From positions 840,001 through 872,000 of the forward strand of contig FP565575.1 of the NCBI GenBank assembly GCA_000091165.1: 32,000 nucleotides of DNA, written 5' to 3'. Source of the stretch: Candidatus Methylomirabilis oxygeniifera. Lineage in GTDB: Bacteria; Methylomirabilota; Methylomirabilia; Methylomirabilales; Methylomirabilaceae. The translations under genes were made by a program, and so were the position numbers. How positions within the stretch are numbered: the first letter of the stretch is position 1; each line of letters begins with the position of its first letter. This document shows positions 19,502-32,000 of this stretch, piece by piece. The notes below the pieces were generated by a model, which saw nothing but the letters and a program-made list of their open reading frames with translations, did no database searches and had not been told where the DNA came from.

Positions 19502-19615
19502 CTCAATCCCCCTCTGCGAAAGGGGGAAGCGAGGGTACGCATCAGTAATACCCCCCTTTACGAAAGGGGGGCTACGGGGAGTTTGTCTGAGCTGCGCGCT
19601 GATCGCTGAACGCTA
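19502..19615 (+). repeat. Double-hairpin intergenic repeat, copy B
   Basis: Collinear with 5038-5158: ctcaatccccctctgcgaaaggggg ... ccccccttta-cgaaagggggg ... gtttgtctgagctg...gatcgctgaacgcta. Ends 32 nt before the rhodanese start. Confidence 0.7.
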
Positions 19616-19647
19616 TGTTCGACGGCGCCTGGGACAGGAGGGATGGG

Positions 19648-20535
19648 GTGAAACGAGTAATGATGGCAGCGGTAGCAGCGATGACGCTGCTCGCGGCGAC
19701 TCCGTGGTTGACCCTGGCTGCGGGTTACGGCAACCCACAGTTGCTTGTGAACACTCAGTGGTTGATCCAGCACCTGAATGATCGGGATCTGCGGATCATC
19801 GACATGCGCAACAGCCCGGACGAGTACGCGGCCGGACACATTCCCGGCGCGGTCCATCTGTCGGTCAATCAGGCCCGTGTGGCCTTGAAAGAGTCCGGTT
19901 TCGCCCTGCCTCCCGATTATGAGATCGAAGAGCGATTGGGGCAGCTCGGAATCACCAAAGATACTATGGTGGTTGTATATGACGATCAGGGAGGGCTCAA
20001 TGCCTCGCGCCTGTTCTTTACCCTTGAATATGCCGGTCACAAAAAGGTGGCGTTGTTGAACGGGGGCATCACGAAGTGGGTCGCTGAAGAGCGGCCTCTG
20101 TCGAAGACGGCGCCGCAGGTGAGTAAGACGGTCTACCAGGTCCAGGCTGAGACGCAGCGTGTCGTGGCGGCGAACTGGATTGTCGCCAACCTGGGGAAGC
20201 CGAATCTGGCCCTGGTGGACGCGCGATCGGCTGCTGAGTTTCGCGGCGAGGATCTGCGGGCCAAGCGGGGAGGCCACATCCCGGGGGCCGTCAACATTGA
20301 GTGGACGCACAACCTGGCCGCCGACAAGACATTCAAACCGGCGGAGGAACTCCTGGCGCTTTATAGCCAGGCGGGGGTCACGAAGGATAAGACGATCGTG
20401 AGCTACTGCCAGACGATGCATCGCGGCGCCGTGACCTACTTTATACTCCGGCTCCTGGGGTATTCGGATGTTCGCGGGTACGATCGCTCCTGGAGCGAGT
20501 GGGGTAACGACCTGTCGCTGCCCGCACAGTGGTGA
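19648..20535 (+). CDS. Exported tandem-rhodanese sulfurtransferase (thiosulfate/3-mercaptopyruvate sulfurtransferase family)
   Basis: GTG 19648 lies 6 nt after aggagg and gives VKRVMMAAVAAMTLLAATPWLTLAAG, which is signal-peptide-like. Two rhodanese domains. Active-site loop YCQTMHRGA in the C-terminal domain. Confidence 0.85.
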   Translation: MKRVMMAAVAAMTLLAATPWLTLAAGYGNPQLLVNTQWLIQHLNDRDLRIIDMRNSPDEYAAGHIPGAVHLSVNQARVALKESGFALPPDYEIEERLGQLGITKDTMVVVYDDQGGLNASRLFFTLEYAGHKKVALLNGGITKWVAEERPLSKTAPQVSKTVYQVQAETQRVVAANWIVANLGKPNLALVDARSAAEFRGEDLRAKRGGHIPGAVNIEWTHNLAADKTFKPAEELLALYSQAGVTKDKTIVSYCQTMHRGAVTYFILRLLGYSDVRGYDRSWSEWGNDLSLPAQW

Positions 20536-21645: not shown

Positions 21646-22251
21646 ATGTGCCCGCCGGAGCCGCAGAAGCTCAGCCTGAACCTGGGGGATGCCCTGATCG
21701 TTGTGGATGTCCAGAACGATTTTCTGCCGGGGGGTAGCTTGGCGGTGCCGCAAGGGGATGACGTCATCCCTGTCCTCAATCGCTACCTGGCCGATTTTGC
21801 GCGCCGAGGCCTGCCGATCTTCATCACCCGAGACTGGCACCCCCCTGATCACTGTTCGTTTCAACCATACGGGGGACCTTGGCCTCCTCATTGTGTGGCC
21901 GGTTCGGAAGGCGCGGCGTTTGCCCCCGCCCTCGAACTTCCCGCCTCCAGTACCCGCATTACCCTCAAAGGCACGCAGCCAGAGAAGGACGCCTATTCCG
22001 CGTTCGACGGAACGGATCTTGATGTACGGCTGCGCGCCCATGGCGTAGGGCGCCTCTTTGTCGGCGGCCTGGCGACCGACTACTGCGTCCTGTGTACGGT
22101 AGAGGATGGTCTGAAGGCCGGGTATGCGGTCGTTCTCCTTCAGGATGCGGTCCGGGCCGTCAATGTGCGCCCCGGTGACGGAGAACGGGCGGAAGCGGAG
22201 ATGATTCGACGGGGGGCCATACCGATCCGACTGGAGATGCTGGCTGTATGA
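21646..22251 (+). CDS. pncA: Nicotinamidase/pyrazinamidase (isochorismatase family)
   Basis: ALIVVDVQNDFLPGGSL (catalytic Asp), RDWHPPDH / WPPHCV (metal site), GLATDYCV (nucleophilic Cys). Confidence 0.85.
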   Translation: MCPPEPQKLSLNLGDALIVVDVQNDFLPGGSLAVPQGDDVIPVLNRYLADFARRGLPIFITRDWHPPDHCSFQPYGGPWPPHCVAGSEGAAFAPALELPASSTRITLKGTQPEKDAYSAFDGTDLDVRLRAHGVGRLFVGGLATDYCVLCTVEDGLKAGYAVVLLQDAVRAVNVRPGDGERAEAEMIRRGAIPIRLEMLAV

Positions 22252-23585
22252 GTCGTCCATCAAGCCTACTGTTGACCGATCTCTATCAGCTCACCATGCT
22301 GCAAGGGTATGTCGAGCATGGGATGGAGGAGCAGGCGACCTTTGAGTTCTTTGTGCGTAAGCTGCCGCCGACGCGAAATTTCCTGCTGGCGGCGGGGCTG
22401 GAACAGGCGCTGAGCTTCCTCGAAGAGTTGCGTTTTACATCCGAGGAGCTGGAGTGGCTGAGCGGCTGCGGTCTGTTTCGGCCGACCCTTGTAGACTACC
22501 TGGAAACCCTGCATTTTACCGGCGATGTGCATGCGATGCCGGAAGGAACGGTCTTTTTCCCTGATGAGCCGATCGTACGGATCACCGCCCCGATTCCACA
22601 GGCGCAACTGGTAGAGACGCGTCTGATTAACCTGCTCCACTTCCAGACCCTCATCGCCTCCAAGGCGGTGCGTTCGGTGCTCGTTGCCCCGGGAAAGCTC
22701 CTGGTCGATTTTGGTCTGCGTCGCGCCCACGGGGCGGAGGCCGGGTTGCTTGCGGCGCGCGCCAGCTACCTTGCGGGATTCTCAGGGACGTCCGCGGTGC
22801 AGGCGGCGCCGGTATTCGGCATACCGATCTACGGGACGATGGCGCACTCCTTCGTTCAGGCTCACGTGGATGAGACGGCCGCCTTCGAACGTTTCGCGTA
22901 TGCGAATGCGGATAATGTTGTCCTGCTCATCGACACCTACGATACCGAGGCGGGTGCGGCGAAGGTCGTATCGCTGGCGTCGCGATTGCGGGAGAAGGGC
23001 ATCGCCATCCAGGGGGTGCGCCTGGACAGCGGTGATCTTGCGGACCATGCCCGCAAGGTGCGGCGGATTCTGGACGAGGGTGGGTTGACCGACGCGACGA
23101 TCTTTGCCAGCGGGAACCTGGACGAGTTCAGCGTGGCGCAGTTGCTCGCCGCGCAAGCTCCGATTGATGGCTTTGGCATCGGCACGCGCATGGATACCTC
23201 CGCCGATGCCCCCTACCTGGATTGTGCCTACAAGCTGGAGGAATACGGTGGACAGGCACGTCGGAAGCGCTCTGAGGGCAAGGCGACATGGCCGGGCCGC
23301 AAGCAGGTTTATCGCCGGTATGACGCCGACGGCCGTATGCACTCCGATATCCTGACCGTGGAAGATGATCTGCAGGATGGCGAGCCGTTGATCCGGCCGG
23401 TGATGCGCGCCGGCAAGCGCCTTTGCGCTCCGCCTCCCCTCACGACACTTCGTGAGCGCGTGCGTGAACAACTCGCGCGTTTGCCGCACGGGCTGCGGAC
23501 GCTTGAGAAAGGGCCGGACTATCCCGTTCACGTCTCTGCTGCGCTACGCGACCTGGCCAAGACTGTAGACGAACATCAACTCTGA
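22248..23585 (+). CDS. pncB: Nicotinate phosphoribosyltransferase
   Basis: N-terminus LLTDLYQLTMLQGY, GTMAHSFVQ and IDTYDT...GVRLDSGD are typical of the NAPRTase family. ATGA start/stop overlap with pncA. Confidence 0.9.
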   Translation: MSRPSSLLLTDLYQLTMLQGYVEHGMEEQATFEFFVRKLPPTRNFLLAAGLEQALSFLEELRFTSEELEWLSGCGLFRPTLVDYLETLHFTGDVHAMPEGTVFFPDEPIVRITAPIPQAQLVETRLINLLHFQTLIASKAVRSVLVAPGKLLVDFGLRRAHGAEAGLLAARASYLAGFSGTSAVQAAPVFGIPIYGTMAHSFVQAHVDETAAFERFAYANADNVVLLIDTYDTEAGAAKVVSLASRLREKGIAIQGVRLDSGDLADHARKVRRILDEGGLTDATIFASGNLDEFSVAQLLAAQAPIDGFGIGTRMDTSADAPYLDCAYKLEEYGGQARRKRSEGKATWPGRKQVYRRYDADGRMHSDILTVEDDLQDGEPLIRPVMRAGKRLCAPPPLTTLRERVREQLARLPHGLRTLEKGPDYPVHVSAALRDLAKTVDEHQL

Positions 23586-23645: not shown

Positions 23646-23723
23646 GCGCCCGTAGCTCAGCCCGGATAGAGCGTTTGCCTGCGGAGCAAAAGGCCGGCAG
23701 TTCAAATCTGCCCGGGCGCACCA
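23646..23723 (+). tRNA. tRNA-Arg, anticodon GCG, CCA encoded
   Basis: Manual cloverleaf: acceptor gcgcccg/cgggcgc; D arm gctc-agcccggata-gagc; anticodon arm tttgc-ctGCGga-gcaaa; variable aggcc; T arm ggcag-ttcaaat-ctgcc; discriminator A + cca. Confidence 0.85.
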
Positions 23724-23853: not shown

Positions 23854-24429
23854 ATGAGTAGGATTGTGGATGAGGTGCTCACCGCGAACAGGGGCTATGC
23901 CGCAACGTTTGGAGACAAGAGCACGTTGCCGATGCCGCCGGGACGACGGTTTGCCATCCTGACCTGTATGGATGCGCGTCTTGATCCGGCCAAGTACGCG
24001 GGGCTGTCGGAAGGGGATGCGCACGTGATCCGCAATGCAGGCGGACGCGCCAGCGACGACGCGATCCGGTCGCTGGTCATTTCCTACAAGCTCCTGGGCA
24101 CCCGGGAATGGTTCGTCATCCATCACACCAATTGCGGGATGGAGACCTTTACCGATGAGATCATGCGCGGGCTACTGGCCAAGAGTCTGAAGACCGCAAC
24201 CATCGATGCCGCCGGATGGCATGATACCGGTCAAGGTCCCGGGTCAACGGAAGGCGCGTTTATCGACTGGTTGACCATCGCCGACCAGGTCGAGAGTGTC
24301 AGTGCCGACGTGCGCCGCATCAGGATGCATCCGCTGGTCCCGCGCGATATTCCCATCTATGGCTACATCTACGACGTGAAGACCGGTCAGCTTGTCGAGG
24401 TCTCTGAAGCCACGCGAATCGGGGCGTAG
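23854..24429 (+). CDS. Beta-class carbonic anhydrase (Rv1284/clade-D-like)
   Basis: SD gggggagg. Zn ligands in [10 protein letters not shown] and HHTNCGM. The [12 protein letters not shown] block is typical of this subclass. Confidence 0.85.
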
Positions 24430-24726
24430 AGGCGAAACATTTATCGTCCCTGGCCGTCGGGTGGGAAACCGCTGGAAACAGTAGATCTTCACCGGCTAGG
24501 CCGCTCATAGCGTCTCCTTGTCCAACGTGCTACGCTATCTGGAAACGTCTGCATCAAGGTGCTGCGAGAGTACCGGCGCCCTGGTGCGCTCGTTCTCCGT
24601 TGTAAGCTATTCAAGCGCTCTTCCGATGTCAGTCCCGATCGTTCGACAAGAAGGGTTAGATTGATCCCGAAGTCGTGCGCCGGCGCGATAGCGCTGTGTG
24701 GTCGAGGATTGCAACCAAAAAAATTC

Positions 24727-24756
24727 TTGACAGACGAAGTATGGGGGTTGTATAAG
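24727..24756 (+). promoter_or_regulatory. Candidate sigma-70 promoter of the sulfur operon (TTGACA-18 nt-TATAAG)
   Basis: A perfect -35 ttgaca (24727-24732), preceded by an A-tract (aaaaaaa), and a -10 tataag (24751-24756), 51 nt upstream of the Rrf2 start. Confidence 0.4.
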
Positions 24757-24776
24757 AAACACGACTAGCTCAATCG

Positions 24777-24798
24777 ACTTACTATGTTTTCGGTAAGT
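24777..24798 (+). promoter_or_regulatory. Inverted repeat acttac-N10-gtaagt in the 5' leader (possible Rrf2 operator)
   Basis: Perfect 6-bp arms at 24777-24782 and 24793-24798, between the putative -10 and the Rrf2 ATG. Confidence 0.3.
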
Positions 24799-24806
24799 AG
24801 TGAAAA

Positions 24807-25256
24807 ATGAAAGTATCTACAAAAGGTGATTACGCAACACGAGCCATGCAGGATCTGGCCCTCCACTATGAGCAAGGCCCGATTCAGATTGAGGATATCG
24901 CCAAGCGGCAACACCTCCCAGCCAGGTACCTGGAACAGATCCTGTTGAGCCTCAAGCGAGCCGGATTTCTGGAGAGTAAGCGCGGGGTGAGCGGCGGTTA
25001 CTACCTGGCTAAACATCCCCGTGAGATCACCGTTGGCGCCATTATCAGGGCGATGGAGGGACCGATTGTCCCGATTTTCTGCGTCGGAAGCGGCCAGCGG
25101 GAGATCTGCATTGAAGAGCCTCAGTGCTGTCTGCGGGACATCTGGGCCGAGGTGCGCGACGCAGTGAGCCACATTGTCGACCGTACCTCCTTGGAAGACC
25201 TCTGCGGACAGATCCGTGCGAGACGGGAGCGAGGAGAGGTCAGCTACCAAATCTAA
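24807..25256 (+). CDS. Rrf2-family transcriptional regulator (IscR/CymR/NsrR-like) with a C-terminal Cys cluster
   Basis: MKVSTKGDYATRAMQDLA...IAKRQHLPARYLEQILLSLKRAGFLESKRGVSGGYYLA is a winged HTH. Cys92, Cys101, Cys107 and Cys108 are candidate Fe-S ligands. Confidence 0.9.
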   Translation: MKVSTKGDYATRAMQDLALHYEQGPIQIEDIAKRQHLPARYLEQILLSLKRAGFLESKRGVSGGYYLAKHPREITVGAIIRAMEGPIVPIFCVGSGQREICIEEPQCCLRDIWAEVRDAVSHIVDRTSLEDLCGQIRARRERGEVSYQI

Positions 25257-25289
25257 CCTATCTGGGCTGCCTGGAGATCGGATACGTAG

Positions 25290-26204
25290 ATGCCACGGTT
25301 GGTTCGAAACGCTCTGGAACTGATTGGCGACACGCCGCTGGTTCAGTTGCAGCGGATACCGCATCCTGGATCGGCCAGGATTTTCGCCAAGCTGGAGTCG
25401 CTCAATCCGGGCGGAAGTGTGAAGGATCGGATCGCCCTGGCGATGATCGAGGATGCGGAGCGGAGTGGGCGCCTCAAGCCAGGCGATACGATTGTCGAGC
25501 CGACGTCAGGCAATACCGGGATCGGGCTGGCGATGGTCGCTGCCGTCAAGGGGTATCACCTGATTCTGACGATGCCGGAGGATATGAGCGCAGAACGGCG
25601 GAAGTTGGTCGGTCGGTTCGGGGCCGAAGTGATTCTGACCCCGGCCATTGAGGGGATGAGCGGCGCGGTCTATGCGGCAGAATCGCTGGTGGCGCAACAT
25701 CCCGGTTACTTCATGCCGCAACAGTTTCTGAATCCGGCCAACCCGGCCGTTCATCGTCGTACGACGGCACAAGAGATTCTGAAAGCGACTGATGGCCAGG
25801 TCGATGCTTTTGTGGCCGGTGTCGGGACCGGTGGAACGATTACCGGGGTGGGCGAGGTGCTCAAAAGGGAAGTTCCCGGCATTCAGGTGATCGCGGTAGA
25901 GCCGGCCAGATCTCCCGTCTTGCAGGGAGGGAGGGCCAGGCCGCATGGTATTCAGGGGATCGGCGCAAGCTTTGTCCCCGGCGTACTGAATATGGAAGTC
26001 GTTGATGAAGTGATCGCGGTTGAGGACGAGGACGCCTATCGGATGGCCTCTCGTCTGGGTAAAGAGGAGGGCCTGCTGGTGGGGATCTCAGCCGGGGCCA
26101 ACGTCTTTGCCTCAGTAGTGGTCGCCCAACGGCTTGACAGCAAAAAGGTTGTGGTCACAATCCTCCCCGACACGGGGGAGCGATACTTATCGGTTCCACT
26201 GTAA
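25290..26204 (+). CDS. cysK: Cysteine synthase A (O-acetylserine sulfhydrylase, PLP-dependent)
   Basis: GDTPLV, PLP lysine in NPGGSVKDR, TSGNTGIGLA, GVGTGGTITG, and a C-terminal PDTGERYLS. Confidence 0.9.
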   Translation: MPRLVRNALELIGDTPLVQLQRIPHPGSARIFAKLESLNPGGSVKDRIALAMIEDAERSGRLKPGDTIVEPTSGNTGIGLAMVAAVKGYHLILTMPEDMSAERRKLVGRFGAEVILTPAIEGMSGAVYAAESLVAQHPGYFMPQQFLNPANPAVHRRTTAQEILKATDGQVDAFVAGVGTGGTITGVGEVLKREVPGIQVIAVEPARSPVLQGGRARPHGIQGIGASFVPGVLNMEVVDEVIAVEDEDAYRMASRLGKEEGLLVGISAGANVFASVVVAQRLDSKKVVVTILPDTGERYLSVPL

Positions 26205-26224
26205 CCTGCAAGGGGGCAAAACGA

Positions 26225-27373
26225 ATGAATGCCTGCCGTGATATGAAGATCTCTCAACCGCGCACATCAGCGAACAGCGACCGCAGCGTGGCGATCCGTG
26301 TCTATATCCCGACTCCGTATCGGGGACTGACCGACAATCAGCCTCGTGTCGAAGGGCGAGGAGATGATCTGGTAGAACTTCTGGAGGATTTGGACCGACG
26401 CTTTCCAGGGATTCATGGGCGTGTGTTCGATCAGATGGGCGAATTCCACCGTCACCTCAATATCTATGTCAACAATGTGGCGGTAGAGGAGTTAGGCGGG
26501 AAGCGGACCGCACTCAAGGATGGCGACGAGGTGGCGTTGATCCCGGCTATGGCGGGAGGCGCCGGACCGTTCAATGAAGAGCAGATCCGCCGTTACAGTC
26601 GCCATATCATCCTTCCCGAGGTAGGCGGGAAGGGGCAGCGCAAACTGTTGAACAGTTCGGCGTTGCTCGTCGGCGCAGGCGGTCTGGGATCCCCTGCGGC
26701 TCTCTACCTGGCGGCTGCCGGTGTGGGTCGTCTCGGCATCATTGACGCCGATGTGGTGGACTTGAGCAACCTGCAGCGTCAGATTCTTCACCATGTGGAT
26801 GATGTGGGGCGGCCGAAGGTGATCTCAGCGGTCGAGGCGATCGGCCAGATCAATCCCGACGTAAAGGTGGAGCCGTTTCAAGCGGTCCTCTCCTCGGAGA
26901 ACGCGAAGGAGGTTATCAGTCAGTACGATCTGGTGGTCAATGGCTGCGATAATTTTCCGACGCGATACCTGACGAACGACGCCTGCGTGCTGCTCAAGAA
27001 ACCACTCGTGGACGGAAGTATCTTTAAGTTTGAAGGGCAGGTGACGGTCTTTCTGCCCGGTCAAGGCTGCTATCGCTGCCTATATCCGGCCCCTCCGCCA
27101 CCAGGGCTTGTGCCGAGCTGTCAGGAGGCCGGTGTACTGGGTGTGCTGTGCGGCATTGTCGGCAGCCTGCAGGCGATTGAGGCAATCAAGCTGCTGCTCG
27201 GGATCGGCGACTCGCTGGCCGGGCGGTTGCTTTTCTTCGATTCGTTGGGGATGGAGTTCAGGCAGGTCAAGGTGCGGCGCGACTCCGACTGTCCGGTGTG
27301 CGGAGACGATCCGACCATCACCGATCTGATCGATTATCACGAATTCTGTGGAGTGCCGGGCGGTGGTCACTGA
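26225..27373 (+). CDS. Fusion protein: CysO/MoaD/ThiS-like ubiquitin-fold sulfur carrier (about aa 22-112, ending ...IPAMAGG) + MoeB/ThiF-type adenylyltransferase (E1-like, no rhodanese domain)
   Basis: Carrier part VAIRVYIPTPYRG...HLNIYVNNVAVEELGGKRTALKDGDEVALIPAMAGG, with G111-G112 at 26555-26560. It continues without a stop or Met into AGPFNEEQIRRYSRHIILPEVG..GQ..L..S.LLVGAGGLGSPAALYLAAAGVG.L.IID.D.V..SNLQRQ. Also CQEAGVLG and the Zn pairs CYRC and CPVC. The protein ends 25 aa after CPVC. Confidence 0.85.
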   Translation: MNACRDMKISQPRTSANSDRSVAIRVYIPTPYRGLTDNQPRVEGRGDDLVELLEDLDRRFPGIHGRVFDQMGEFHRHLNIYVNNVAVEELGGKRTALKDGDEVALIPAMAGGAGPFNEEQIRRYSRHIILPEVGGKGQRKLLNSSALLVGAGGLGSPAALYLAAAGVGRLGIIDADVVDLSNLQRQILHHVDDVGRPKVISAVEAIGQINPDVKVEPFQAVLSSENAKEVISQYDLVVNGCDNFPTRYLTNDACVLLKKPLVDGSIFKFEGQVTVFLPGQGCYRCLYPAPPPPGLVPSCQEAGVLGVLCGIVGSLQAIEAIKLLLGIGDSLAGRLLFFDSLGMEFRQVKVRRDSDCPVCGDDPTITDLIDYHEFCGVPGGGH

Positions 27374-27466
27374 GGTTGCGAACGGCGCAGCCATGGTCCG
27401 GATGATGGGCCTTGGTCTCGTTGTAGGGGTGCCTTCGGATATGCCCTGCAACGCGGTCGCTTCTGC

Positions 27467-28408
27467 ATGAACTCGACGTTTCGCGACATCCTGTTGGCGC
27501 GGGATTTCACTCTGCTGCGGGCCTACCTGCTGGCGCTGTTGATTCAGATGGTCGGGGTGAGAGCGATGGCGACATTCGGTCTGTTCGGATTAGGCATCAC
27601 GCCCTTTTTCTGGATGGCGACACTGTTCGGCGGATTCGTCTTTGGCCTCGGTATGGCGTTGTCCGGCGGGTGCGCGAGCGGGAGCACCTATCGGTCAGGT
27701 GAGGGGATGGTAGGGTCCATTATCGCGCTGCTCGGCTTTGTGTTCGGGATAACCATGACGAATGACGGTGTGTTGGAGCCGGTACAGGCGACCTTTCGAG
27801 GTTGGGTCGTTGAGATCGACGGGCAGCCTGCGACGCTGGACCGCCTCCTGGGCGTGAGCCCGTGGATCCTGGTTGTGACGTGTGTGACGGTCGGCGGATG
27901 GTGGCTTGTGAAAAGCCCGTCCGGCGGCTATCAGAGAGGATGGAGCTGGGTAAGGAGCGGCTTGACCATCGGCCTGATCGCGACGGCTGCCTGGCCGATC
28001 TCCGCCCTGACCGGACGGGAGTACGGTCTCTCGGTCACTGAACCGATTCGAACCATCTCGGGATTCCTGTTTACGGGTGAGACCGACCGGCTTACCTGGG
28101 GAAGTTTTATGTGGGTCGGGCTCATCGCGGGCGCTCACGTGGCGGCGCGGTCGCATGGAGAGTTTGCCTGGCGTGCTCCCGGTGCGCAACGTCTGCTTCA
28201 GGCGCTCGGGGGTGGTCTGCTGATGGGTATGGGTGCGGGGATTGCGGGTGGCTGTAACATCGGTCACGCACTGACCGGTGTTCCGCTCTTCGGGTTGAGC
28301 AGCATGACGGCGACCCTCAGTATTATGGTGGGTGTCTGGGCTGGAGTCTACCTATTGTTCGGTAGTGTGGCATTTGAACGCGGAGCGCGAAGCGTCCAGC
28401 GGGCGTAG
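27467..28408 (+). CDS. YeeE/YedE (TsuA-type) thiosulfate/sulfur-compound permease; as called it lacks the first TM helix, and the conserved N-terminus lies upstream in two frames (27393-27466)
   Basis: GGCASGSTYR and GGCNIGHALTG motifs, polytopic. Upstream in the same frame reads GAFGYALQRGRFC with no start codon. The 0 frame reads MVRMMGLGLVVGV. See finding. Confidence 0.8.
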   Translation: MNSTFRDILLARDFTLLRAYLLALLIQMVGVRAMATFGLFGLGITPFFWMATLFGGFVFGLGMALSGGCASGSTYRSGEGMVGSIIALLGFVFGITMTNDGVLEPVQATFRGWVVEIDGQPATLDRLLGVSPWILVVTCVTVGGWWLVKSPSGGYQRGWSWVRSGLTIGLIATAAWPISALTGREYGLSVTEPIRTISGFLFTGETDRLTWGSFMWVGLIAGAHVAARSHGEFAWRAPGAQRLLQALGGGLLMGMGAGIAGGCNIGHALTGVPLFGLSSMTATLSIMVGVWAGVYLLFGSVAFERGARSVQRA

Positions 28409-28437
28409 CGTCTCCCGATCGGAGAGTCGATCGGAGA

Positions 28438-28680
28438 ATGGTGGAGAAGGCGATGGCGAAGTACTCACTTGATGTGACCGGAGAGATCTGTCCGTATCCG
28501 TTGATGTTGACCAAGCAGAAGATGGGGGCGCTCGCGTCCGGCGATCAGTTGGCAGTGATGGTCGATTACGCAAAATCAGTCGAAGACATTCCCCGGTGGG
28601 CCAAAGAAGAGGGGTACTCGGTTCTTGCCGTCTTGGAAGTGGGGAGAACGCAGTGGGAAATCGTTCTGGAAAAGGCATAA
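28438..28680 (+). CDS. TusA/SirA-like sulfurtransferase (TsuB-like partner of YeeE)
   Basis: LDVTGEICPYPLMLTKQKM carries the CPxP active-site motif. About 76-80 aa (alternative ATG at 28453). Confidence 0.85.
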   Translation: MVEKAMAKYSLDVTGEICPYPLMLTKQKMGALASGDQLAVMVDYAKSVEDIPRWAKEEGYSVLAVLEVGRTQWEIVLEKA

Positions 28681-28701
28681 GCATTCGTGGAGGAGGTCAG
28701 C

Positions 28702-28950
28702 ATGATGAGTGGGGCGCCTGAGCAGACGGTTGAGTCCCTCGATCTGAAGGGCGAGGTGTGCCCCTACACGTTTGTGAAGACCAAATTGGCCTTGGAGGAG
28801 CTACAGAGTGGTCAGGTGCTGAGGGTGATTGTGGACAACCCCGGCTCTGCGGCAAACGTTCCCAGGAGCCTACACAGTGAAGGGCATGTGGTTGTCGATG
28901 TAACGCAACTGAATGACACCGACTGGGCGATTACAGTGAAAAAGGCCTGA
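28702..28950 (+). CDS. Second TusA/SirA-like sulfurtransferase
   Basis: LDLKGEVCPYTFVKTKLALEEL. ATG 28702 follows SD ggaggagg (the track opens at GTG 28687). Confidence 0.85.
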   Translation: MMSGAPEQTVESLDLKGEVCPYTFVKTKLALEELQSGQVLRVIVDNPGSAANVPRSLHSEGHVVVDVTQLNDTDWAITVKKA

Positions 28951-28987
28951 CCTGCCTGGGTAGAGTGGGCCGGGGACGAGACAGCCG

Positions 28988-29016
28988 ACCTGCCCGTGCG
29001 GTGCACGCAGGCAGGT
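28988..29016 (+). promoter_or_regulatory. GC-rich stem-loop just 5' of the cysM-like SD, with an alternative upstream pairing partner
   Basis: acctgcccgtgc (28988-28999) pairs with gcac(gc)aggcaggt (29003-29016) over 12 bp with a 2-nt bulge. The right arm caggcaggt is also perfectly complementary to acctgcctg at 28950-28958. Confidence 0.35.
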
Positions 29017-29029
29017 AAAGAGGACATGG

Positions 29030-29965
29030 ATGAAATCAGAAGATATTCTTGATGCAATCGGGAACACACCGTTGGTGGAGCTGCCGCGGATGAGTCCCAA
29101 GAAAGGGGTTCGGATCTTTGCCAAACTGGAGGGGACCAACCCGACCGGCAGCCTGAAGGATCGAATCGTAAAATACATGATCGAGCAGGCCGAGCGGAGC
29201 GGCGAGCTGACGAAGGACAAGACGATCCTGGAGCCGACAAGCGGCAACACCGGTATCGCCTTGGCCATGATCGGACGGAGGAAGGGGTATAAGGTCAAGG
29301 TGGTGATTCCGGAAAACGCCACCCCGGAGCGACGCCAGCTTCTGGAGATCTTCGGCGCCGAGTTGATCTATTCTGATGGGACAAAAGGCAGTAACGGCGC
29401 CATTGAGTTAGCTCAAAAGCTGGTGACGGAGGATCCGACCCTCTATATGCCCTTTCAGTACGGCAATCCGGCCAACCCGATGGCTCACTACGAAACAACC
29501 GGAAAGGAGATCCTGAACGATCTCCCGGAGGTCGATGTCTTTGTGGCCGGCCTTGGGACCGGCGGAACGCTGATGGGCGTCGGTCGACGACTGAAAGAAC
29601 ATGACCCCAAAACCAAGGTGATTGCGGTAGAGCCCAATCCGGGCGATCTGGTGCAGGGACTTCGGAGTCTGGATGAGGGTTTTATCCCCCCGATTCTCGA
29701 CACGAGCCTCCTGGACGGCAAGATCATGGTTGATTCCCGCTGCGCGTTTGCCGCTACCAGAGATCTGACCAACAAGGAAGGGATCTTTGCGGGCGTCTCC
29801 TCCGGCGCTGTTGTGCATGTGGCGATCAGGACGGCACACCGTATGGAGAAGGGCAACATCGTAGTGATCCTGTGCGATACCGGATGGAAGTATATCAGTC
29901 TGGGTGTCTGGCACAAGGAGTTTCCGGAGTTGGGCGAGAACATGTACAGTCATCTCTGGTGGTGA
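29030..29965 (+). CDS. cysM: CysM-type cysteine synthase (Mycobacterium CysM-like, carrier-protein-thiocarboxylate-dependent class)
   Basis: GNTPLVELPRMSP, PLP lysine in NPTGSLKDR, EPTSGNTGIALA, VIPENATPERRQLLEIFGAELI and GLGTGGTLMG. Immediately followed by a JAMM gene, as in mec-cysO-cysM loci. Confidence 0.85.
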   Translation: MKSEDILDAIGNTPLVELPRMSPKKGVRIFAKLEGTNPTGSLKDRIVKYMIEQAERSGELTKDKTILEPTSGNTGIALAMIGRRKGYKVKVVIPENATPERRQLLEIFGAELIYSDGTKGSNGAIELAQKLVTEDPTLYMPFQYGNPANPMAHYETTGKEILNDLPEVDVFVAGLGTGGTLMGVGRRLKEHDPKTKVIAVEPNPGDLVQGLRSLDEGFIPPILDTSLLDGKIMVDSRCAFAATRDLTNKEGIFAGVSSGAVVHVAIRTAHRMEKGNIVVILCDTGWKYISLGVWHKEFPELGENMYSHLWW

Positions 29966-29966
29966 G

Positions 29967-30455
29967 ATGGTCCTCACCGAACGGGAGCTGAACGAGATCT
30001 TTGCGCACGCCGAAGAGGCGTTTCCCGAGGAGGCCTGTGGTATCGTGATAGGCAAACCGGGCGATCCGAATACGAACCTTGTTCGCAGATGCGGAAATCT
30101 GGCGAATCAGTATCACCTGGACGATCCGACTCGGAATCCGAGAGATGCAAAGACCGCCTACATCATGGACCCGAAGGACCTGCTGCGGGTTCAAAGCGAA
30201 GCGGATGCGAAGGGCTTCGAGTTCGTTGTGCTCTATCATTCACACCCGGATCATGAGGCCTACTTCTCCGAGACCGATCGAGAGTTGGCGCTGTTCGACG
30301 GTGAACCAGTGTGGTCTCGGCTGCGCTATCTCGTGGTATCGGTGAAAAATGGAAAGGTCTCGTATTTCAGGGTATTCGGTTGGGACACCATCGAAAAGCA
30401 GTTTACGGCGGAGCCGTCCGCTGTCTTTGAACGAAAAGACCAGCCTCTCGTGTAG
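29967..30455 (+). CDS. mec: JAMM/MPN+ zinc metallopeptidase (Mec+/CysO-cysteine peptidase-like)
   Basis: EEACGIV (catalytic Glu) and HSHPDHEAYFSETD, which is an exact H-x-H-x7-S-x2-D JAMM motif. The ATG is 1 nt after the cysM stop. Confidence 0.85.
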   Translation: MVLTERELNEIFAHAEEAFPEEACGIVIGKPGDPNTNLVRRCGNLANQYHLDDPTRNPRDAKTAYIMDPKDLLRVQSEADAKGFEFVVLYHSHPDHEAYFSETDRELALFDGEPVWSRLRYLVVSVKNGKVSYFRVFGWDTIEKQFTAEPSAVFERKDQPLV

Positions 30456-30538
30456 AGCTTCTTGAGGGAATGATACGTGATATGCGGGGCGTTCGAAACT
30501 GAGCCGGATGGTCGCGAGATGAATAGGAAGCCAAGGGC

Positions 30539-31480
30539 ATGATGAATCTTGACGCCGGGCAGATTACGCTCATCGCGATCACGCTCTTTGCGGCTGCCGT
30601 CAATGGGGCGCTGGGATACGGGTTTTCATCGCTGACCGTCCCGGTTGCTCTCATCTTTTATTCCAACCGGATCTTAAATCCCGCCCTGGTGTTGGTAGAG
30701 GTGGCGCTCAACAGCTACGTACTGCTTGTCAATCGACGGAGCATCCCGAAGATCTGGAAGAGGGTGCTGCCGATCGTGTGCGGTCTCATTCCTGGCGTCA
30801 TCGCGGGGAGCTATGCCCTCTCGATGGCAAGTCCGGAATGGCTGAAGCTGATCACGTATCTCATCGTGCTGCCGCTAATCCTGCTGCAGGCGGCAGGGGT
30901 AAGACGGCCGATCCGGTCTGAGCGGCTCATTGGCGTGCCGTTTGGCGCCGGTGTCGGCGTACTCTATTCGACAACCACCATCTCTGGTCCTCCGTTGGCG
31001 CTCCTTTTTAACAATCAGGGCTTTGTCAAAGGCGAGTTTCGAGCCGCCCTTGGCATGATCAGAATGGTCGAATCGACCGTCACAGCGACTGCGTATTATT
31101 ACCTTGGAGTGTACACTGCGGGGAGCGTAGGACTCCTGTGGTCGATCGTGCCGAGCGTGGCGATAGGGATCCCGCTGGGGGCCTACGTCATCAGCCAGAT
31201 GAATGCTGAAACATTTCGCAGAATCTGTATGAGCTTTGACGCCTGGGTAGTGGGCTTCGGCTTATCCAAGGTGCTGATCGATCTGAAATTGACGACCAGC
31301 CCGAGTGGTTACATTGTCTGGCTGGCCGTTATCGTGACTGATCTGACGTTACTCTACGGCTTCTTTACGAGGCAGCCTGAGATCCCGGTGGCCGCCTTGG
31401 CGGTCGATGTCCCTGACGGTAGTCCCAGGCTCATACCGCAGAAAACTCCGGCTGTGACCCCGGATGATCTGGCTACGTAA
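30539..31480 (+). CDS. TauE/SafE (DUF81) family anion permease, putative sulfite/organosulfonate exporter
   Basis: Polytopic. N-terminal AAAVNGALGYGFSSLTVPVALIF and a mid-protein GAGVGVLYSTTTISGPPLALLF, which resemble TauE internal repeats. Confidence 0.7.
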   Translation: MMNLDAGQITLIAITLFAAAVNGALGYGFSSLTVPVALIFYSNRILNPALVLVEVALNSYVLLVNRRSIPKIWKRVLPIVCGLIPGVIAGSYALSMASPEWLKLITYLIVLPLILLQAAGVRRPIRSERLIGVPFGAGVGVLYSTTTISGPPLALLFNNQGFVKGEFRAALGMIRMVESTVTATAYYYLGVYTAGSVGLLWSIVPSVAIGIPLGAYVISQMNAETFRRICMSFDAWVVGFGLSKVLIDLKLTTSPSGYIVWLAVIVTDLTLLYGFFTRQPEIPVAALAVDVPDGSPRLIPQKTPAVTPDDLAT

Positions 31481-31528
31481 GTCTATTTCTAGGCCGTTGG
31501 CGGGCGATGAATGATGGAGAGGGTAATC

Positions 31529-32000
31529 ATGAATAATGCGAGCGAACCGGTGGACGCTGAGCAGCCGGCAAACGTTTTAACTCCGACTAATGGACGGATC
31601 AATCAAGAAAAGGCGCAGTCCGCGAACGGGTCGTCCTGGGCCAGTGAGGAGGACATCGACACCTTCGATCAGTTTGTCCGGAGATTTTGGAAGGGGGAGA
31701 TCTCCCCGGACGAATTCAAGCGGTTCCGCCTGCAGAACGGGATCTATGGACAGCGGCAGGAAGGGGAGCAGATGTTTCGGATCAAGATCCCGTGGGGCGG
31801 CCTCAGTGCGGCTCAATTGGAGTTACTCGCCGAGTTGGCGGCGAAGGCTCCGAATGGGGTAGCCCACGTCACGACCCGCCAGAACATCCAGCTTCACTTC
31901 ATCAAGCTCGAGCAGGTAACAGGACTGATGAGGAGCCTGGCCTCGGTCGGCCTGACGACCAGAGAGGCCTGCGGCAACACCGTTCGCAACGTCACGGTCG
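31529..32000 (+). CDS. Ferredoxin-type sulfite (nitrite/sulfite) reductase, N-terminal 157 codons; continues beyond the window
   Basis: SD ggagagg. FKRFRLQNGIYGQRQEGEQMFRIKIPWGGLSAAQL, HVTTRQNIQLHFI and TTREACGNTVRNVT are NIR_SIR signatures. Absent from the ORF track because there is no stop inside the window. Confidence 0.85.
   Translation, partial: MNNASEPVDAEQPANVLTPTNGRINQEKAQSANGSSWASEEDIDTFDQFVRRFWKGEISPDEFKRFRLQNGIYGQRQEGEQMFRIKIPWGGLSAAQLELLAELAAKAPNGVAHVTTRQNIQLHFIKLEQVTGLMRSLASVGLTTREACGNTVRNVTV

What the first reader, a model, noticed from the sequence alone, without database searches (positions are those of the whole stretch)
26225..27373. Ubiquitin-fold sulfur carrier fused through its Gly-Gly to its own E1-like activating enzyme
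One uninterrupted 382-codon ORF encodes a CysO/MoaD/ThiS-type beta-grasp domain ending ...DGDEVALIPAMAGG (G111-G112, nt 26555-26560). It runs straight into a MoeB/ThiF adenylation domain (AGPFNEEQIRRYSRHIILPEVG...GAGGLGS...CYRC...CPVC), with no stop, no internal Met and no frameshift between them.

Sulfur-carrier chemistry (acyl-adenylate, then thiocarboxylate) needs a free Gly-Gly carboxylate. The fusion must therefore be cut exactly after GG, as ubiquitin precursors are cut in eukaryotes. The only obvious candidate is the JAMM peptidase at 29967-30455.

Known systems have free carriers or one- to two-residue caps: M. tuberculosis mec-cysO-cysM with MoeZ, the Wolinella HcyS/HcyD/HcyF system, and Pseudomonas QbsE/QbsD. 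A carrier capped by its own 270-aa E1 is a more extreme architecture and would impose 1:1 stoichiometry. The E1 also lacks the MoeZ-type rhodanese domain, so sulfur must be delivered in trans.

Speculatively, a Ubl/E1/JAMM trio of this kind can also conjugate proteins, as archaeal SAMP/UbaA and Thermus TtuB do.
Basis: partly seen in the sequence, partly recalled or inferred. Interest (0 to 1): 0.8.

Follow-up and report, generated by a model that had tools for sequence, protein, structure and literature searches.

The report
Sulfur-carrier protein fused to its activating enzyme
A methane-oxidising NC10 bacterium encodes a small CysO-type sulfur-carrier protein joined through its Gly-Gly end to its own activating enzyme; the gene is real and conserved, but this fusion is already catalogued and fits a known pattern of carriers that a JAMM protease must cut free, so it is a tidy test case, not a surprise.

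Summary
ORF 26225-27373 (382 aa) has a ThiS/MoaD-fold domain whose profile match ends exactly at G111-G112. A MoeB/ThiF adenylation domain starts four residues later.

It is not an assembly error. The exact protein lies on at least 10 independent contigs, and more than 100 homologues (66-96% identity) keep the fusion and an invariant GG.

The carrier is CysO-type: its best solved-structure relative is M. tuberculosis CysO. The downstream PLP enzyme is Mtb-CysM-type, with an active-motif JAMM gene one base after it. The context is a sulfur-assimilation island, not molybdenum-cofactor genes.

In Nitrospinota the same two genes are separate (…GG-AR-stop-ATG…). About 83% of unfused carriers carry 1-15-residue caps after GG. 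The fusion is therefore the extreme of a continuum, and probably arose by loss of a stop codon.

JAMM-Ubl-rhodanese-E1 polyproteins also exist.

Cleavage after GG by the JAMM protease is the best-supported mechanism, but it is inferred, not shown.

Two caveats apply. Most NC10 relatives also carry a standalone second CysO beside CysM. The JAMM protease is needed anyway to release cysteine from CysO-Cys.

The architecture is already in the literature (Makarova & Koonin 2010; mSystems 2024, which names NC10). Interest is modest.

The parts
26225..27373 (+). Single ORF (382 codons plus stop) encoding the CysO-like carrier fused to a MoeB-type E1
   Evidence: The identical protein is on at least 10 independent contigs, and 119 of the 120 best homologues have the ThiS+ThiF architecture.
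26225..26287 (+). N-terminal 21 codons: either a poorly conserved, disordered extension or 5' leader if the true start is GTG 26288
   Evidence: Homologues of 361-365 aa start at the equivalent of residue 22. pLDDT is about 31 for aa 1-20. The CysO alignment starts at aa 23-24.
26288..26560 (+). CysO/ThiS/MoaD-type beta-grasp sulfur-carrier domain (aa 22-112)
   Evidence: Pfam ThiS covers profile positions 2-76 of 76. Best PDB relative is Mtb CysO 3DWG_C, E 1.2e-15, then 4N6E_B. Identity to Mtb CysO by blastp is 43%. AF2 pLDDT is 84-94 with beta-grasp secondary structure.
26555..26560 (+). Gly111-Gly112 codons: the carrier's would-be C-terminus and predicted scissile site (cut after G112)
   Evidence: Invariant in 86 fusion proteins and in 79 of 79 carrier genes in related loci. 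pLDDT is below 50 for aa 109-112.
26561..26569 (+). Three-residue variable linker (A-G-P) between GG and the first E1 helix
   Evidence: Not among the conserved columns. Variants in homologues include AVP, AIP, TLA, SLT and SS. The E1 alignment to ThiF/MoeB starts at N117.
26570..27370 (+). MoeB-type E1 adenylation domain without a rhodanese domain. It carries GAGGLGS (26672-26692), the MoeB-Arg14 equivalent R126 (26600-26602), CxxC motifs at 27068-27079 and 27290-27301, and the crossover-loop Cys299 (27119-27121).
   Evidence: Pfam ThiF E 1.8e-85. NCBIfam MoeB, MoeZ and UbaA models match. PDB ThiF 1ZFN, MoeB 1JW9 and Uba4 6YUB match. C282, C285, C299, C356 and C359 are invariant.
29967..30455 (+). 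JAMM/MPN+ metalloprotease (Mec-like): candidate for cutting after GG and for releasing Cys from CysO-Cys
   Evidence: Pfam Prok-JAB E 2.4e-23. The motif E22…H-S-H-PDHEAYF-S-ET-D is readable in the translation. A JAMM gene is present in 9 of 10 fused loci with enough downstream DNA.
29030..29965 (+). Mtb-type CysM (predicted O-phosphoserine / carrier-thiocarboxylate-dependent cysteine synthase)
   Evidence: Best PDB relatives are Mtb CysM 3DWG_A and 3DKI_A, E 3.8e-89, aligned over the full length including 'LRxxDEGF' and the C-terminal LW.
25290..26204 (+). CysK (O-acetylserine sulfhydrylase A), always immediately upstream of the fusion in NC10
   Evidence: TIGR01139 scores 446 bits against a cutoff of 351. 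The order Rrf2-CysK-[Ubl-E1] is kept in L002-L015 wherever the contig reaches upstream (L001/L004 are cut inside cysK; L014 has no upstream match).
24807..25256 (+). Rrf2-family transcription regulator at the head of the cluster
   Evidence: Pfam Rrf2 E 5e-40. Position is conserved.
27467..28408 (+). YeeE/YedE-type sulfur (thiosulfate) transporter
   Evidence: Pfam Sulf_transp E 1e-74. The gene caller starts it at window ~27363, overlapping the end of the fusion gene.
28438..28680 (+). TusA/YeeD-like sulfurtransferase 1 (motif GEICPYP)
   Evidence: Pfam TusA E 1.8e-21.
28687..28950 (+). TusA/YeeD-like sulfurtransferase 2 (motif GEVCPYT)
   Evidence: Pfam TusA E 9.4e-23.
30539..31480 (+). TauE/SafE-family sulfite exporter-like membrane protein
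   Evidence: Pfam TauE E 3.3e-23.

Best explanation
The gene encodes a precursor in which a CysO-type sulfur carrier is joined through its Gly-Gly to a MoeB-type E1 (no rhodanese domain). It most likely arose when the stop codon was lost between an adjacent cysO-E1 gene pair.

Proposed mechanism, with status of each step:
1. The operon's JAMM/Mec-like metalloprotease cuts after G112, releasing a carrier of about 10-12 kDa that ends in GG, plus a free E1 in 1:1 amounts (inferred).
2. The E1 dimer adenylates the carrier's new carboxylate (inferred from family chemistry).
3. Sulfur arrives in trans to give the thiocarboxylate. Possible sources are the two TusA/YeeD proteins and the YeeE importer, a separate rhodanese, or sulfide from the downstream sulfite reductase (inferred from context).
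4. The Mtb-type CysM adds O-phosphoserine to form CysO-Cys. The same JAMM then releases cysteine and regenerates the carrier (by analogy with M. tuberculosis).

Shown here: the fusion, its conservation, the CysO/CysM/JAMM identities, the context and the evolutionary continuum. Cleavage, the identity of the protease and the sulfur donor are not shown.
For: Domain structure and junction:
- The ThiS profile ends at GG112 and the E1 starts four residues later.
- GG is invariant and the tail motif IPA[MI]AGG matches that of free carriers, while the linker varies.
- The junction is low-confidence and flexible in AF2, whereas both domains are confident.

Identity of the parts:
- The carrier is closest to Mtb CysO. 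The downstream PLP enzyme is closest to Mtb CysM over its full length.
- A JAMM gene with an intact motif starts 1 nt after cysM.

Comparative evidence:
- JAMM is present in 9 of 10 fused loci with enough downstream sequence.
- In Nitrospinota, Nitrospirota and other phyla the orthologous carrier and E1 are separate adjacent genes. The sequence reads GG-AR-TAA-ATG in the same frame in L018, L019 and L021.
- About 50 of about 60 unfused carriers have 1-15-residue caps after GG, so post-GG trimming is the norm in this family.
- Rosetta-stone proteins join JAMM, Ubl, rhodanese and E1 in one chain: P0131 (Pfam-confirmed) and P0202.

This locus:
- No other CysO-type carrier was found in the 32-kb window, or in the 21-kb L081, which overlaps its last ~16 kb and extends ~5 kb beyond its end.

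Experimental precedents:
- MoaX is cut after Gly82 and must be cut to work (PMC4326299).
- The D. radiodurans JAMM DR0402 cleaves MoaD-MoaE (PMC8832034).
- Mec+ hydrolyses CysO-Cys (PMC3227635).
Against: No experiment or proteomic evidence for cleavage was found.

The JAMM gene is explained by the CysM cycle alone, so its presence is not specific evidence for precursor processing.

Most NC10 relatives with the fusion also encode a standalone capped CysO2 next to cysM-JAMM, and CysO2 is closer to Mtb CysO (42-55% identity against 43%). The fused carrier may therefore serve another acceptor, and this genome could carry a free CysO elsewhere.

One fused locus (L010) shows no JAMM within reach.

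In M. tuberculosis only MoeZR, not the CxxC-containing MoeBR, thiocarboxylated CysO (PMC3227635). This E1 is CxxC/MoeB-type.
Confidence: 0.6

Rival explanations
1. The fused beta-grasp domain is never released. It acts as a built-in non-carrier module of the E1, for example by docking CysK/CysM, occupying the substrate site as an autoinhibitor, or stabilising the dimer. A standalone CysO encoded elsewhere is the real carrier.
For: Most NC10 relatives with the fusion also carry a standalone CysO2 directly upstream of cysM-JAMM, and some carry a third paralogue. Iyer et al. 2006 argued the same for Ubl-ThiF proteins that co-occur with free ThiS (PMC1779556). The rest of this genome could not be searched.
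Against: GG and the whole IPAxAGG tail are invariant, as in true carriers, while the linker drifts. The fused domain is the orthologue of free, E1-adjacent carriers in other phyla. The window and its closest relatives (L001, L003) have lost CysO2 but keep CysM and JAMM intact, and no second carrier lies in the window or in the ~5 kb beyond its end covered by L081. JAMM-Ubl-E1 polyproteins argue for processing.
Confidence: 0.2
2. The precursor is cut after GG, but by a different protease or by E1-assisted or other self-processing. The operon's JAMM only recycles CysO-Cys.
For: The protease that cuts mycobacterial MoaX is still unidentified (PMC4326299). L010 has the fusion but no detectable JAMM in 20 kb. 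Only 23 of 65 loci scored as unfused (the count includes two contig-truncated fusions and three ThiS-NIL fusions) show a JAMM nearby although most are capped.
Against: JAMM enzymes are the only class shown to cut linear Ubl-GG fusions in prokaryotes (DR0402, HvJAMM1; PMC8832034). JAMM is fused to Ubl-E1 in P0131 and P0202. No other peptidase is encoded in the cluster.
Confidence: 0.1
3. It is a MoaD-MoeB fusion for molybdenum-cofactor biosynthesis, as database names and the 2024 fusion survey assume. The E1 and carrier may also serve several pathways (Moco, tRNA thiolation, cysteine). This rival overlaps with the best explanation on processing.
For: NCBI and JGI names say MoeB / molybdopterin converting factor, as does PMC11237513. 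The E1 is CxxC/MoeB-type. MoeZR and UbaA-type E1s are multi-carrier enzymes (PMC3227635).
Against: No Moco genes (moaA, moaC, moaE, moeA) appear in the window or the 21-kb locus. Every neighbour is a sulfur-assimilation or cysteine gene: CysK, YeeE, TusA x2, CysM, JAMM, TauE, sulfite reductase, PAPS reductase, ATP sulfurylase. The carrier matches CysO (E 1e-15) far better than MoaD models (TIGR01682 E 4e-4, below cutoff).
Confidence: 0.15
4. The fusion is a sequencing or assembly artefact, such as a lost stop or an indel at the junction.
For: Related phyla have a stop plus ATG exactly here.
Against: The identical ORF is on at least 10 contigs from independent samples. Fusions occur in 16 species-level genomes of three phyla and in more than 100 protein clusters at 66-96% identity, all in frame.
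Confidence: 0.01

Closest known systems
M. tuberculosis Mec+-CysO-CysM pathway with MoeZR (Burns et al. 2005; PMC3227635)
   Same: A CysO-type carrier (43% identity; the alignment ends at the same GG). A CysM whose closest solved relative is Mtb CysM. A JAMM/Mec protease next to cysM. An E1 that must adenylate the carrier.
   Different: The carrier is translated as the N-terminus of its E1 and there is no free cysO between mec and cysM. The E1 is CxxC/MoeB-type without rhodanese, whereas MoeZR lacks the second CxxC and has rhodanese. The cluster also holds CysK, YeeE, two TusA and the sulfate-reduction genes.
GG-linked MoaD-MoaE fusions cut to become active: M. tuberculosis MoaX (PMC4326299) and D. 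radiodurans DR2607 cut by the JAMM DR0402 (PMC8832034)
   Same: A beta-grasp carrier whose GG is internal, fused to a partner enzyme of its own pathway. Cleavage after GG is required. A JAMM is the protease in Deinococcus.
   Different: The partner there is the sulfur-acceptor enzyme (MoaE) of Moco synthesis. Here it is the activating E1, in a cysteine/sulfur-assimilation context. Cleavage here is not demonstrated.
Ubl-E1 fusions already catalogued: 'Ubl-E1-TBP in Thaumarchaeota … shared with bacteria' (PMC2948915); 'MoaD-MoeB' cluster 356.1 in Thaumarchaeota, NC10 and Rokubacteria, plus MoaD-MoeBR (PMC11237513)
   Same: The same domain order. The 2024 survey names NC10, the lineage of this window.
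   Different: Those papers list the architecture without mechanism and file it under Moco. They do not discuss the CysO/CysM/JAMM context or the unfused intermediates.
Ubl-ThiF proteins of Campylobacter type (Iyer, Burroughs & Aravind 2006, PMC1779556)
   Same: An N-terminal beta-grasp domain on a ThiF/MoeB adenylation domain. One Pelobacter case lies beside cysteine synthase.
   Different: That Ubl family is described as distinct from ThiS and as co-occurring with free ThiS, which implies a non-carrier role. Here the domain is a bona fide CysO homologue with the GG tail retained.
Capped carriers trimmed by JAMM: Pseudomonas QbsE/QbsD and Wolinella HcyS/HcyD (recalled from memory, not re-read here); operon type 4e of Iyer et al. 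2006
   Same: The carrier is made with residues after GG. A JAMM in the operon removes them. The operon also holds sulfate-assimilation genes, SirA/TusA and an E1.
   Different: Caps there are 1-2 residues. Here the 'cap' is a 270-residue enzyme.
Archaeal SAMP/UbaA/HvJAMM1 and Thermus TtuB/TtuC dual sulfur-carrier and protein-modifier systems
   Same: A rhodanese-less MoeB/UbaA-like E1 with the crossover-loop Cys (C299). A MoaD/SAMP1-like carrier (NCBIfam SAMP1 45.8 bits). A JAMM gene.
   Different: There is no evidence of conjugation here. All scores are below the equivalog cutoffs (SAMP1 45.8 against 60; UbaA 354 against 450; desampylase 64 against 130).

Membership tests
ThiS/MoaD/CysO beta-grasp sulfur carriers | Beta-grasp fold and family-level sequence match | tested here: met
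   Pfam ThiS 48.8 bits against a cutoff of 22.5. Mtb CysO E 1.2e-15. AF2 pLDDT 84-94 with a beta-alpha-beta pattern.
ThiS/MoaD/CysO beta-grasp sulfur carriers | Gly-Gly at the position of the family C-terminus | tested here: met
   The profile match ends at position 76 of 76 on G112, aligned with CysO G92-G93. Invariant in 86 sequences.
ThiS/MoaD/CysO beta-grasp sulfur carriers | Free C-terminal carboxylate on the last Gly in the gene product | tested here: not met
   The ORF runs on for 270 codons after G112. A free end requires proteolysis, which is not shown.
MoeB/ThiF-type E1 adenylyltransferases | Rossmann nucleotide-binding motif, N-terminal Arg, two CxxC zinc motifs, crossover-loop Cys | tested here: met
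   GAGGLGS, R126 (aligned with MoeB Arg14; that residue's role is recalled from memory), CYRC/CPVC and C299 are all invariant or nearly invariant. Pfam ThiF E 1.8e-85.
MoeZ/MoeZR (the E1 of the mycobacterial CysO pathway) | C-terminal rhodanese domain; first CxxC replaced by NYRD and second motif missing (PMC3227635) | tested here: not met
   There is no rhodanese match and the protein ends 24 residues after the ThiF domain. Both CxxC motifs are present. MoeZ model 368 bits against a cutoff of 647.
Mec-CysO-CysM cysteine pathway | CysM of the O-phosphoserine/CysO-dependent type | tested here: inconclusive
   The best solved relatives are Mtb CysM over the full length (E 3.8e-89). The 'LRxxDEGF' segment (Arg220 region, numbering from memory) and the C-terminal LW are conserved. 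Substrate specificity was not tested.
Mec-CysO-CysM cysteine pathway | JAMM/MPN+ protease with an intact metal site encoded beside cysM | tested here: met
   Prok-JAB 82.6 bits. The E…HSHPDHEAYFSETD motif is present. The start codon is 1 nt after the cysM stop.
Mec-CysO-CysM cysteine pathway | Standalone cysO gene in the mec/cysM cluster | tested here: not met
   Only 80 nt separate TusA2 and cysM, and no second carrier is in the window. Relatives L006, L007, L009, L010, L013, L014 and L030 do have one.
GG-fused carrier precursors activated by JAMM cleavage (MoaD-MoaE type) | Internal GG at the domain junction and a JAMM gene in the genome or locus | tested here: met
GG-fused carrier precursors activated by JAMM cleavage (MoaD-MoaE type) | Demonstrated cleavage after GG that is required for activity | not testable with these tools
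   This needs co-expression with mass spectrometry, or proteomics.
SAMP/UbaA/TtuB-type protein conjugation | Isopeptide conjugates formed by the carrier; E1 Cys-dependent | not testable with these tools
   Only the prerequisite Cys299 and JAMM are seen. The equivalog models score below cutoff.

The most novel reading that the evidence does not exclude
The uncleaved fusion could be a zymogen-like, pre-assembled E1-carrier complex. GG sits only 14 residues before the MoeB-Arg14 equivalent, R126. In MoeB-type dimers that arginine reaches the partner subunit's ATP site (recalled from the MoeB-MoaD structure, not tested here). Each carrier domain could therefore dock in trans on the partner subunit. 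JAMM cleavage would then be a regulated licensing step that switches on thiocarboxylate-dependent cysteine synthesis in exact 1:1 stoichiometry. In lineages with a second CysO, the released carrier could serve a different acceptor or act as a protein modifier.
Probability: 0.12. Interest if true: 0.6.

Novelty: already known. Interest (0 to 1): 0.33.

Why it matters
If cleavage is confirmed, this would be the first biochemically defined case of a ubiquitin-like sulfur carrier made as a precursor with its own E1. It would be a bacterial parallel to ubiquitin-fusion precursors.

It would also correct the current 'MoaD-MoeB / Moco' labelling of this family to a CysO-type cysteine and sulfur-assimilation role.

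The comparative series found here gives a clear evolutionary path and a ready set of constructs for testing JAMM specificity. The series runs from free carrier, to 1-15-residue caps, to E1, CysM or NIL fusions, to JAMM-Ubl-rhodanese-E1 polyproteins.

It does not change the picture specialists already hold. Iyer et al. predicted JAB processing of such fusions in 2006.

Tried and rejected
- **Artefact or frameshift:** rejected, because the ORF is identical in independent assemblies and the fusion is conserved.
- **Internal start at M109 giving a separate E1:** rejected. M109 is I, L or V in homologues, and the single 274-aa hit (P0114) comes from a 1.6-kb contig.
- **A second free carrier in the window or the 21-kb locus:** none found by a family HMM over six frames, and no credible ORF ends in GG.
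- **A free CysO elsewhere in Methylomirabilis, searched with a CysO2 query:** only unnamed or Methylomirabilales/actinobacterial hits came back, so the result is inconclusive.
- **Promoter and terminator scan of 24400-32000:** counts were at shuffle level, so nothing can be said beyond 'no obvious internal terminator'.
- **Rfam scan:** only a tRNA at 23646-23720 and no riboswitch.
- **Papers demonstrating Ubl-E1 cleavage:** none found.
- **AF2 model:** it gave confidence and secondary structure only. No coordinates or PAE were available, and dimers could not be submitted, so I could not judge whether the carrier docks on the E1.
- **Moco role:** judged unlikely as the main function because of the gene context.
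Full report
**1. Observation**

The ORF at 26225-27373 (+) is uninterrupted and 382 codons long.

- Pfam places a ThiS-family beta-grasp domain at aa 27-112. The match runs to the last profile position (76 of 76) on G112.
- Pfam places a ThiF adenylation domain at aa 124-358 (E 1.1e-12 and 1.8e-85).
- Scanned separately, the N-terminal 112 residues hit SAMP1/MoaD models that also end at residue 112. The C-terminal 270 residues hit MoeB, MoeZ and UbaA models.
- The E1 part aligns with E. coli ThiF from its residue 2 and with MoeB from residue 5, starting at N117. Only A-G-P-F lies between GG and the E1 core.
- AlphaFold2, run on an 86-sequence alignment, gives confident models of both domains (mean pLDDT 82.7, pTM 0.72). 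Confidence is low for aa 1-20, aa 109-112 and the block 111-130, so the junction looks flexible.

**2. It is real**

- The identical protein is called on at least 10 contigs from different samples. One is an ENA contig named Methylomirabilis_oxyfera_contig_583.
- Of the 120 best database homologues (66-96% identity, named NC10/Methylomirabilis where named), all but one contig-truncated entry have ThiS+ThiF.
- G111 and G112 are invariant. The three linker residues are not conserved.
- The first 21 codons are poorly conserved, absent from most homologues and disordered in the model. The start may be GTG 26288 instead of ATG 26225, although ATG 26225 has the better ribosome-binding site and spacing.

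**3. What the parts are**

- The carrier's best solved relative is M. tuberculosis CysO (3DWG_C, E 1.2e-15). The alignment ends at CysO's terminal GG. Identity is 43%.
- The PLP enzyme at 29030-29965 is closest to M. tuberculosis CysM over its whole length (E 3.8e-89).
- One base after its stop codon begins a Prok-JAB protein with an intact E…HxHx7Sx2D motif.
- The cluster order is Rrf2, CysK, [CysO-E1], YeeE, TusA, TusA, CysM, JAMM, TauE.
- Beyond the window it continues with sulfite reductase, PAPS reductase, ATP sulfurylase and a rhodanese.
- No molybdenum-cofactor gene is present. This matches the 'sulfur metabolism' operon type 4e of Iyer et al. 2006 (PMC1779556). The 'MoeB / molybdopterin' names given by databases and by PMC11237513 do not fit this context.
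- By the criteria of Voss et al. (PMC3227635), the E1 is MoeB-type: both CxxC motifs are present and there is no rhodanese. It is not MoeZ-type.

**4. Comparative genomics**

I scanned one genome per species with a junction alignment, which returned 80 loci. I then analysed them with ORF tracing and tblastn.

- True fusions occur in 16 loci: Methylomirabilota (14), a Dehalococcoidia MAG (L014) and Moorellaceae bacterium AZ2 (L016).
- In the other loci the orthologous carrier and E1 are separate adjacent genes. These loci come from Nitrospinota, Nitrospirota, Planctomycetia, Poribacteria, Altiarchaeota and Thermodesulfobacteriota.
- All 79 carriers keep GG.
- About 50 of about 60 unfused carriers have 1-15 residues after GG.
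- In L018, L019 and L021 the sequence reads …AGG-A/T-R-stop-ATG-…-F-T-D/E-E-Q in one frame. Loss of a single stop would create the fusion.
- In NC10 the order Rrf2-CysK-[Ubl-E1] holds wherever the contig reaches upstream.
- JAMM is found in 9 of the 10 fused loci that extend far enough downstream.

A search of 1.84 billion cluster representatives found further architectures, all keeping GG:

- Ubl-E1 with longer linkers
- Ubl-E1-rhodanese
- Ubl-rhodanese-E1
- JAMM-Ubl-rhodanese-E1 (P0131, Pfam-confirmed)
- JAMM-Ubl-E1-rhodanese (P0202)

**5. Complication**

Most fused NC10 loci also encode a standalone, capped second CysO immediately upstream of cysM-JAMM. The loci are L006, L007, L009, L010, L013, L014 and L030, and the caps include GGGHFDER, GGWA and GGR. 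L012 and L015 have a further paralogue. CysO2 is closer to Mtb CysO than the fused domain is (42-55% against 43%).

The window and its nearest relatives (L001, L003) lack CysO2: only 80 nt separate TusA2 and cysM. No other carrier is detectable in the window or the 21-kb locus.

In this lineage, then, the fused domain is the only carrier in the island. I could not exclude a free CysO elsewhere in the genome (one search was inconclusive).

**6. Mechanism**

The best-supported reading is a precursor that is cut after G112. Three points support this:

- Adenylation needs a free carboxylate (established chemistry).
- GG-linked MoaD-MoaE fusions must be cut to work. The cutting enzyme is a JAMM in Deinococcus (PMC4326299, PMC8832034).
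- Post-GG extensions are the rule in this carrier family.

The operon's JAMM is the obvious candidate. It is also needed in every cycle to hydrolyse CysO-Cys (PMC3227635), so its presence alone is not specific evidence for precursor processing. Both reactions cut the same bond type after the carrier's GG.

Sulfur must arrive in trans. Candidates are the two TusA/YeeD proteins with the YeeE importer (thiosulfate uptake; PMC11073785), a separate rhodanese, or sulfide. This part is inference.

**7. Novelty**

- The Ubl-E1 architecture was noted in Thaumarchaeota and bacteria in 2010 (PMC2948915).
- A 2024 fusion survey states that in bacteria the MoaD-MoeB fusion is limited to NC10 and Rokubacteria (PMC11237513).
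- Iyer et al. 2006 proposed that JAB peptidases release fused ThiS/MoaD domains.
- I found no paper that tests cleavage of a carrier-E1 fusion.

The finding is therefore correct, and already known as an architecture. What this analysis adds is the CysO/cysteine reassignment, the stop-loss origin, the cap-to-fusion continuum and the second-CysO caveat. Interest is modest.

Noticed in passing
L007:14560-15822 (NC10 bacterium CSP1-5): The standalone second CysO is itself fused in frame, through GG and a linker of about 25 residues, to CysM. It forms a 420-aa ThiS+PALP protein, a carrier-acceptor fusion in the same operon as the carrier-E1 fusion.
   Followed up: partly
L061:10001-10513, L079:10001-10534, L068:2626-3147 (Nitrospirota / Thermodesulfobacteriota): CysO-type carriers are fused after GG to a NIL domain (Pfam ThiS+NIL in L061 and L079; L068 by sequence similarity only, not Pfam-scanned). 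These loci also have two E1 genes flanking the carrier.
   Followed up: partly
P0131 (634 aa), P0202 (619 aa), P0126, P0122 (metagenomic cluster representatives): Multi-domain 'polyproteins' join JAMM, Ubl(GG), rhodanese and E1 in one chain in two different orders. Ubl-rhodanese-E1 and Ubl-E1-rhodanese forms also exist.
   Followed up: partly
P0207, P0223, P0251 (470-490 aa): Tandem E1-E1 proteins have a divergent N-terminal ThiF-like half that keeps the RYxRHIIMPE helix, followed by a canonical E1. This resembles a covalent version of the eukaryotic heterodimeric E1 layout.
   Followed up: no
L006, L009, L010, L012, L013, L015, L030: NC10 relatives carry two or three CysO paralogues with long, variable tails after GG, up to about 30 residues (for example GGRPASGGHAHHGRTGAGAGG).
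   Followed up: partly
window 26225-26287: The start codon is ambiguous. ATG 26225 has a good Shine-Dalgarno sequence, but the 21-residue extension is poorly conserved and disordered. GTG 26288 matches the start of most homologues.
   Followed up: partly
window 27363-27467: The gene caller starts YeeE at about 27363, overlapping the last 11 nt of the fusion gene (348 aa). The first ATG at 27467 would give 313 aa. The earlier start would imply translational coupling.
   Followed up: no
window 19615-20535 (+): A two-domain rhodanese has a signal-peptide-like N-terminus (VKRVMMAAVAAMTLLAATPWLTLAAG). It is probably periplasmic and therefore unlikely to be the cytoplasmic sulfur donor for the E1.
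   Followed up: partly
window 15942-18224 (-): A bacterial CDC48/VCP-like double-AAA ATPase (CDC48_N, CDC48_2, two AAA domains) lies about 8 kb upstream of a Ubl/E1/JAMM set. No link was tested.
   Followed up: no
window 21646-23585 and 23646-23720, 23854-24429: An isochorismatase/nicotinamidase-like gene and a nicotinate phosphoribosyltransferase gene (NAD salvage pair), then a tRNA gene, then a beta-carbonic anhydrase, lie just upstream of the sulfur island.
   Followed up: no
L004:1007-2600: In this Methylomirabilis-like contig the open frame continues about 123 codons past the usual E1 end. This could be a lost stop or an assembly error.
   Followed up: no
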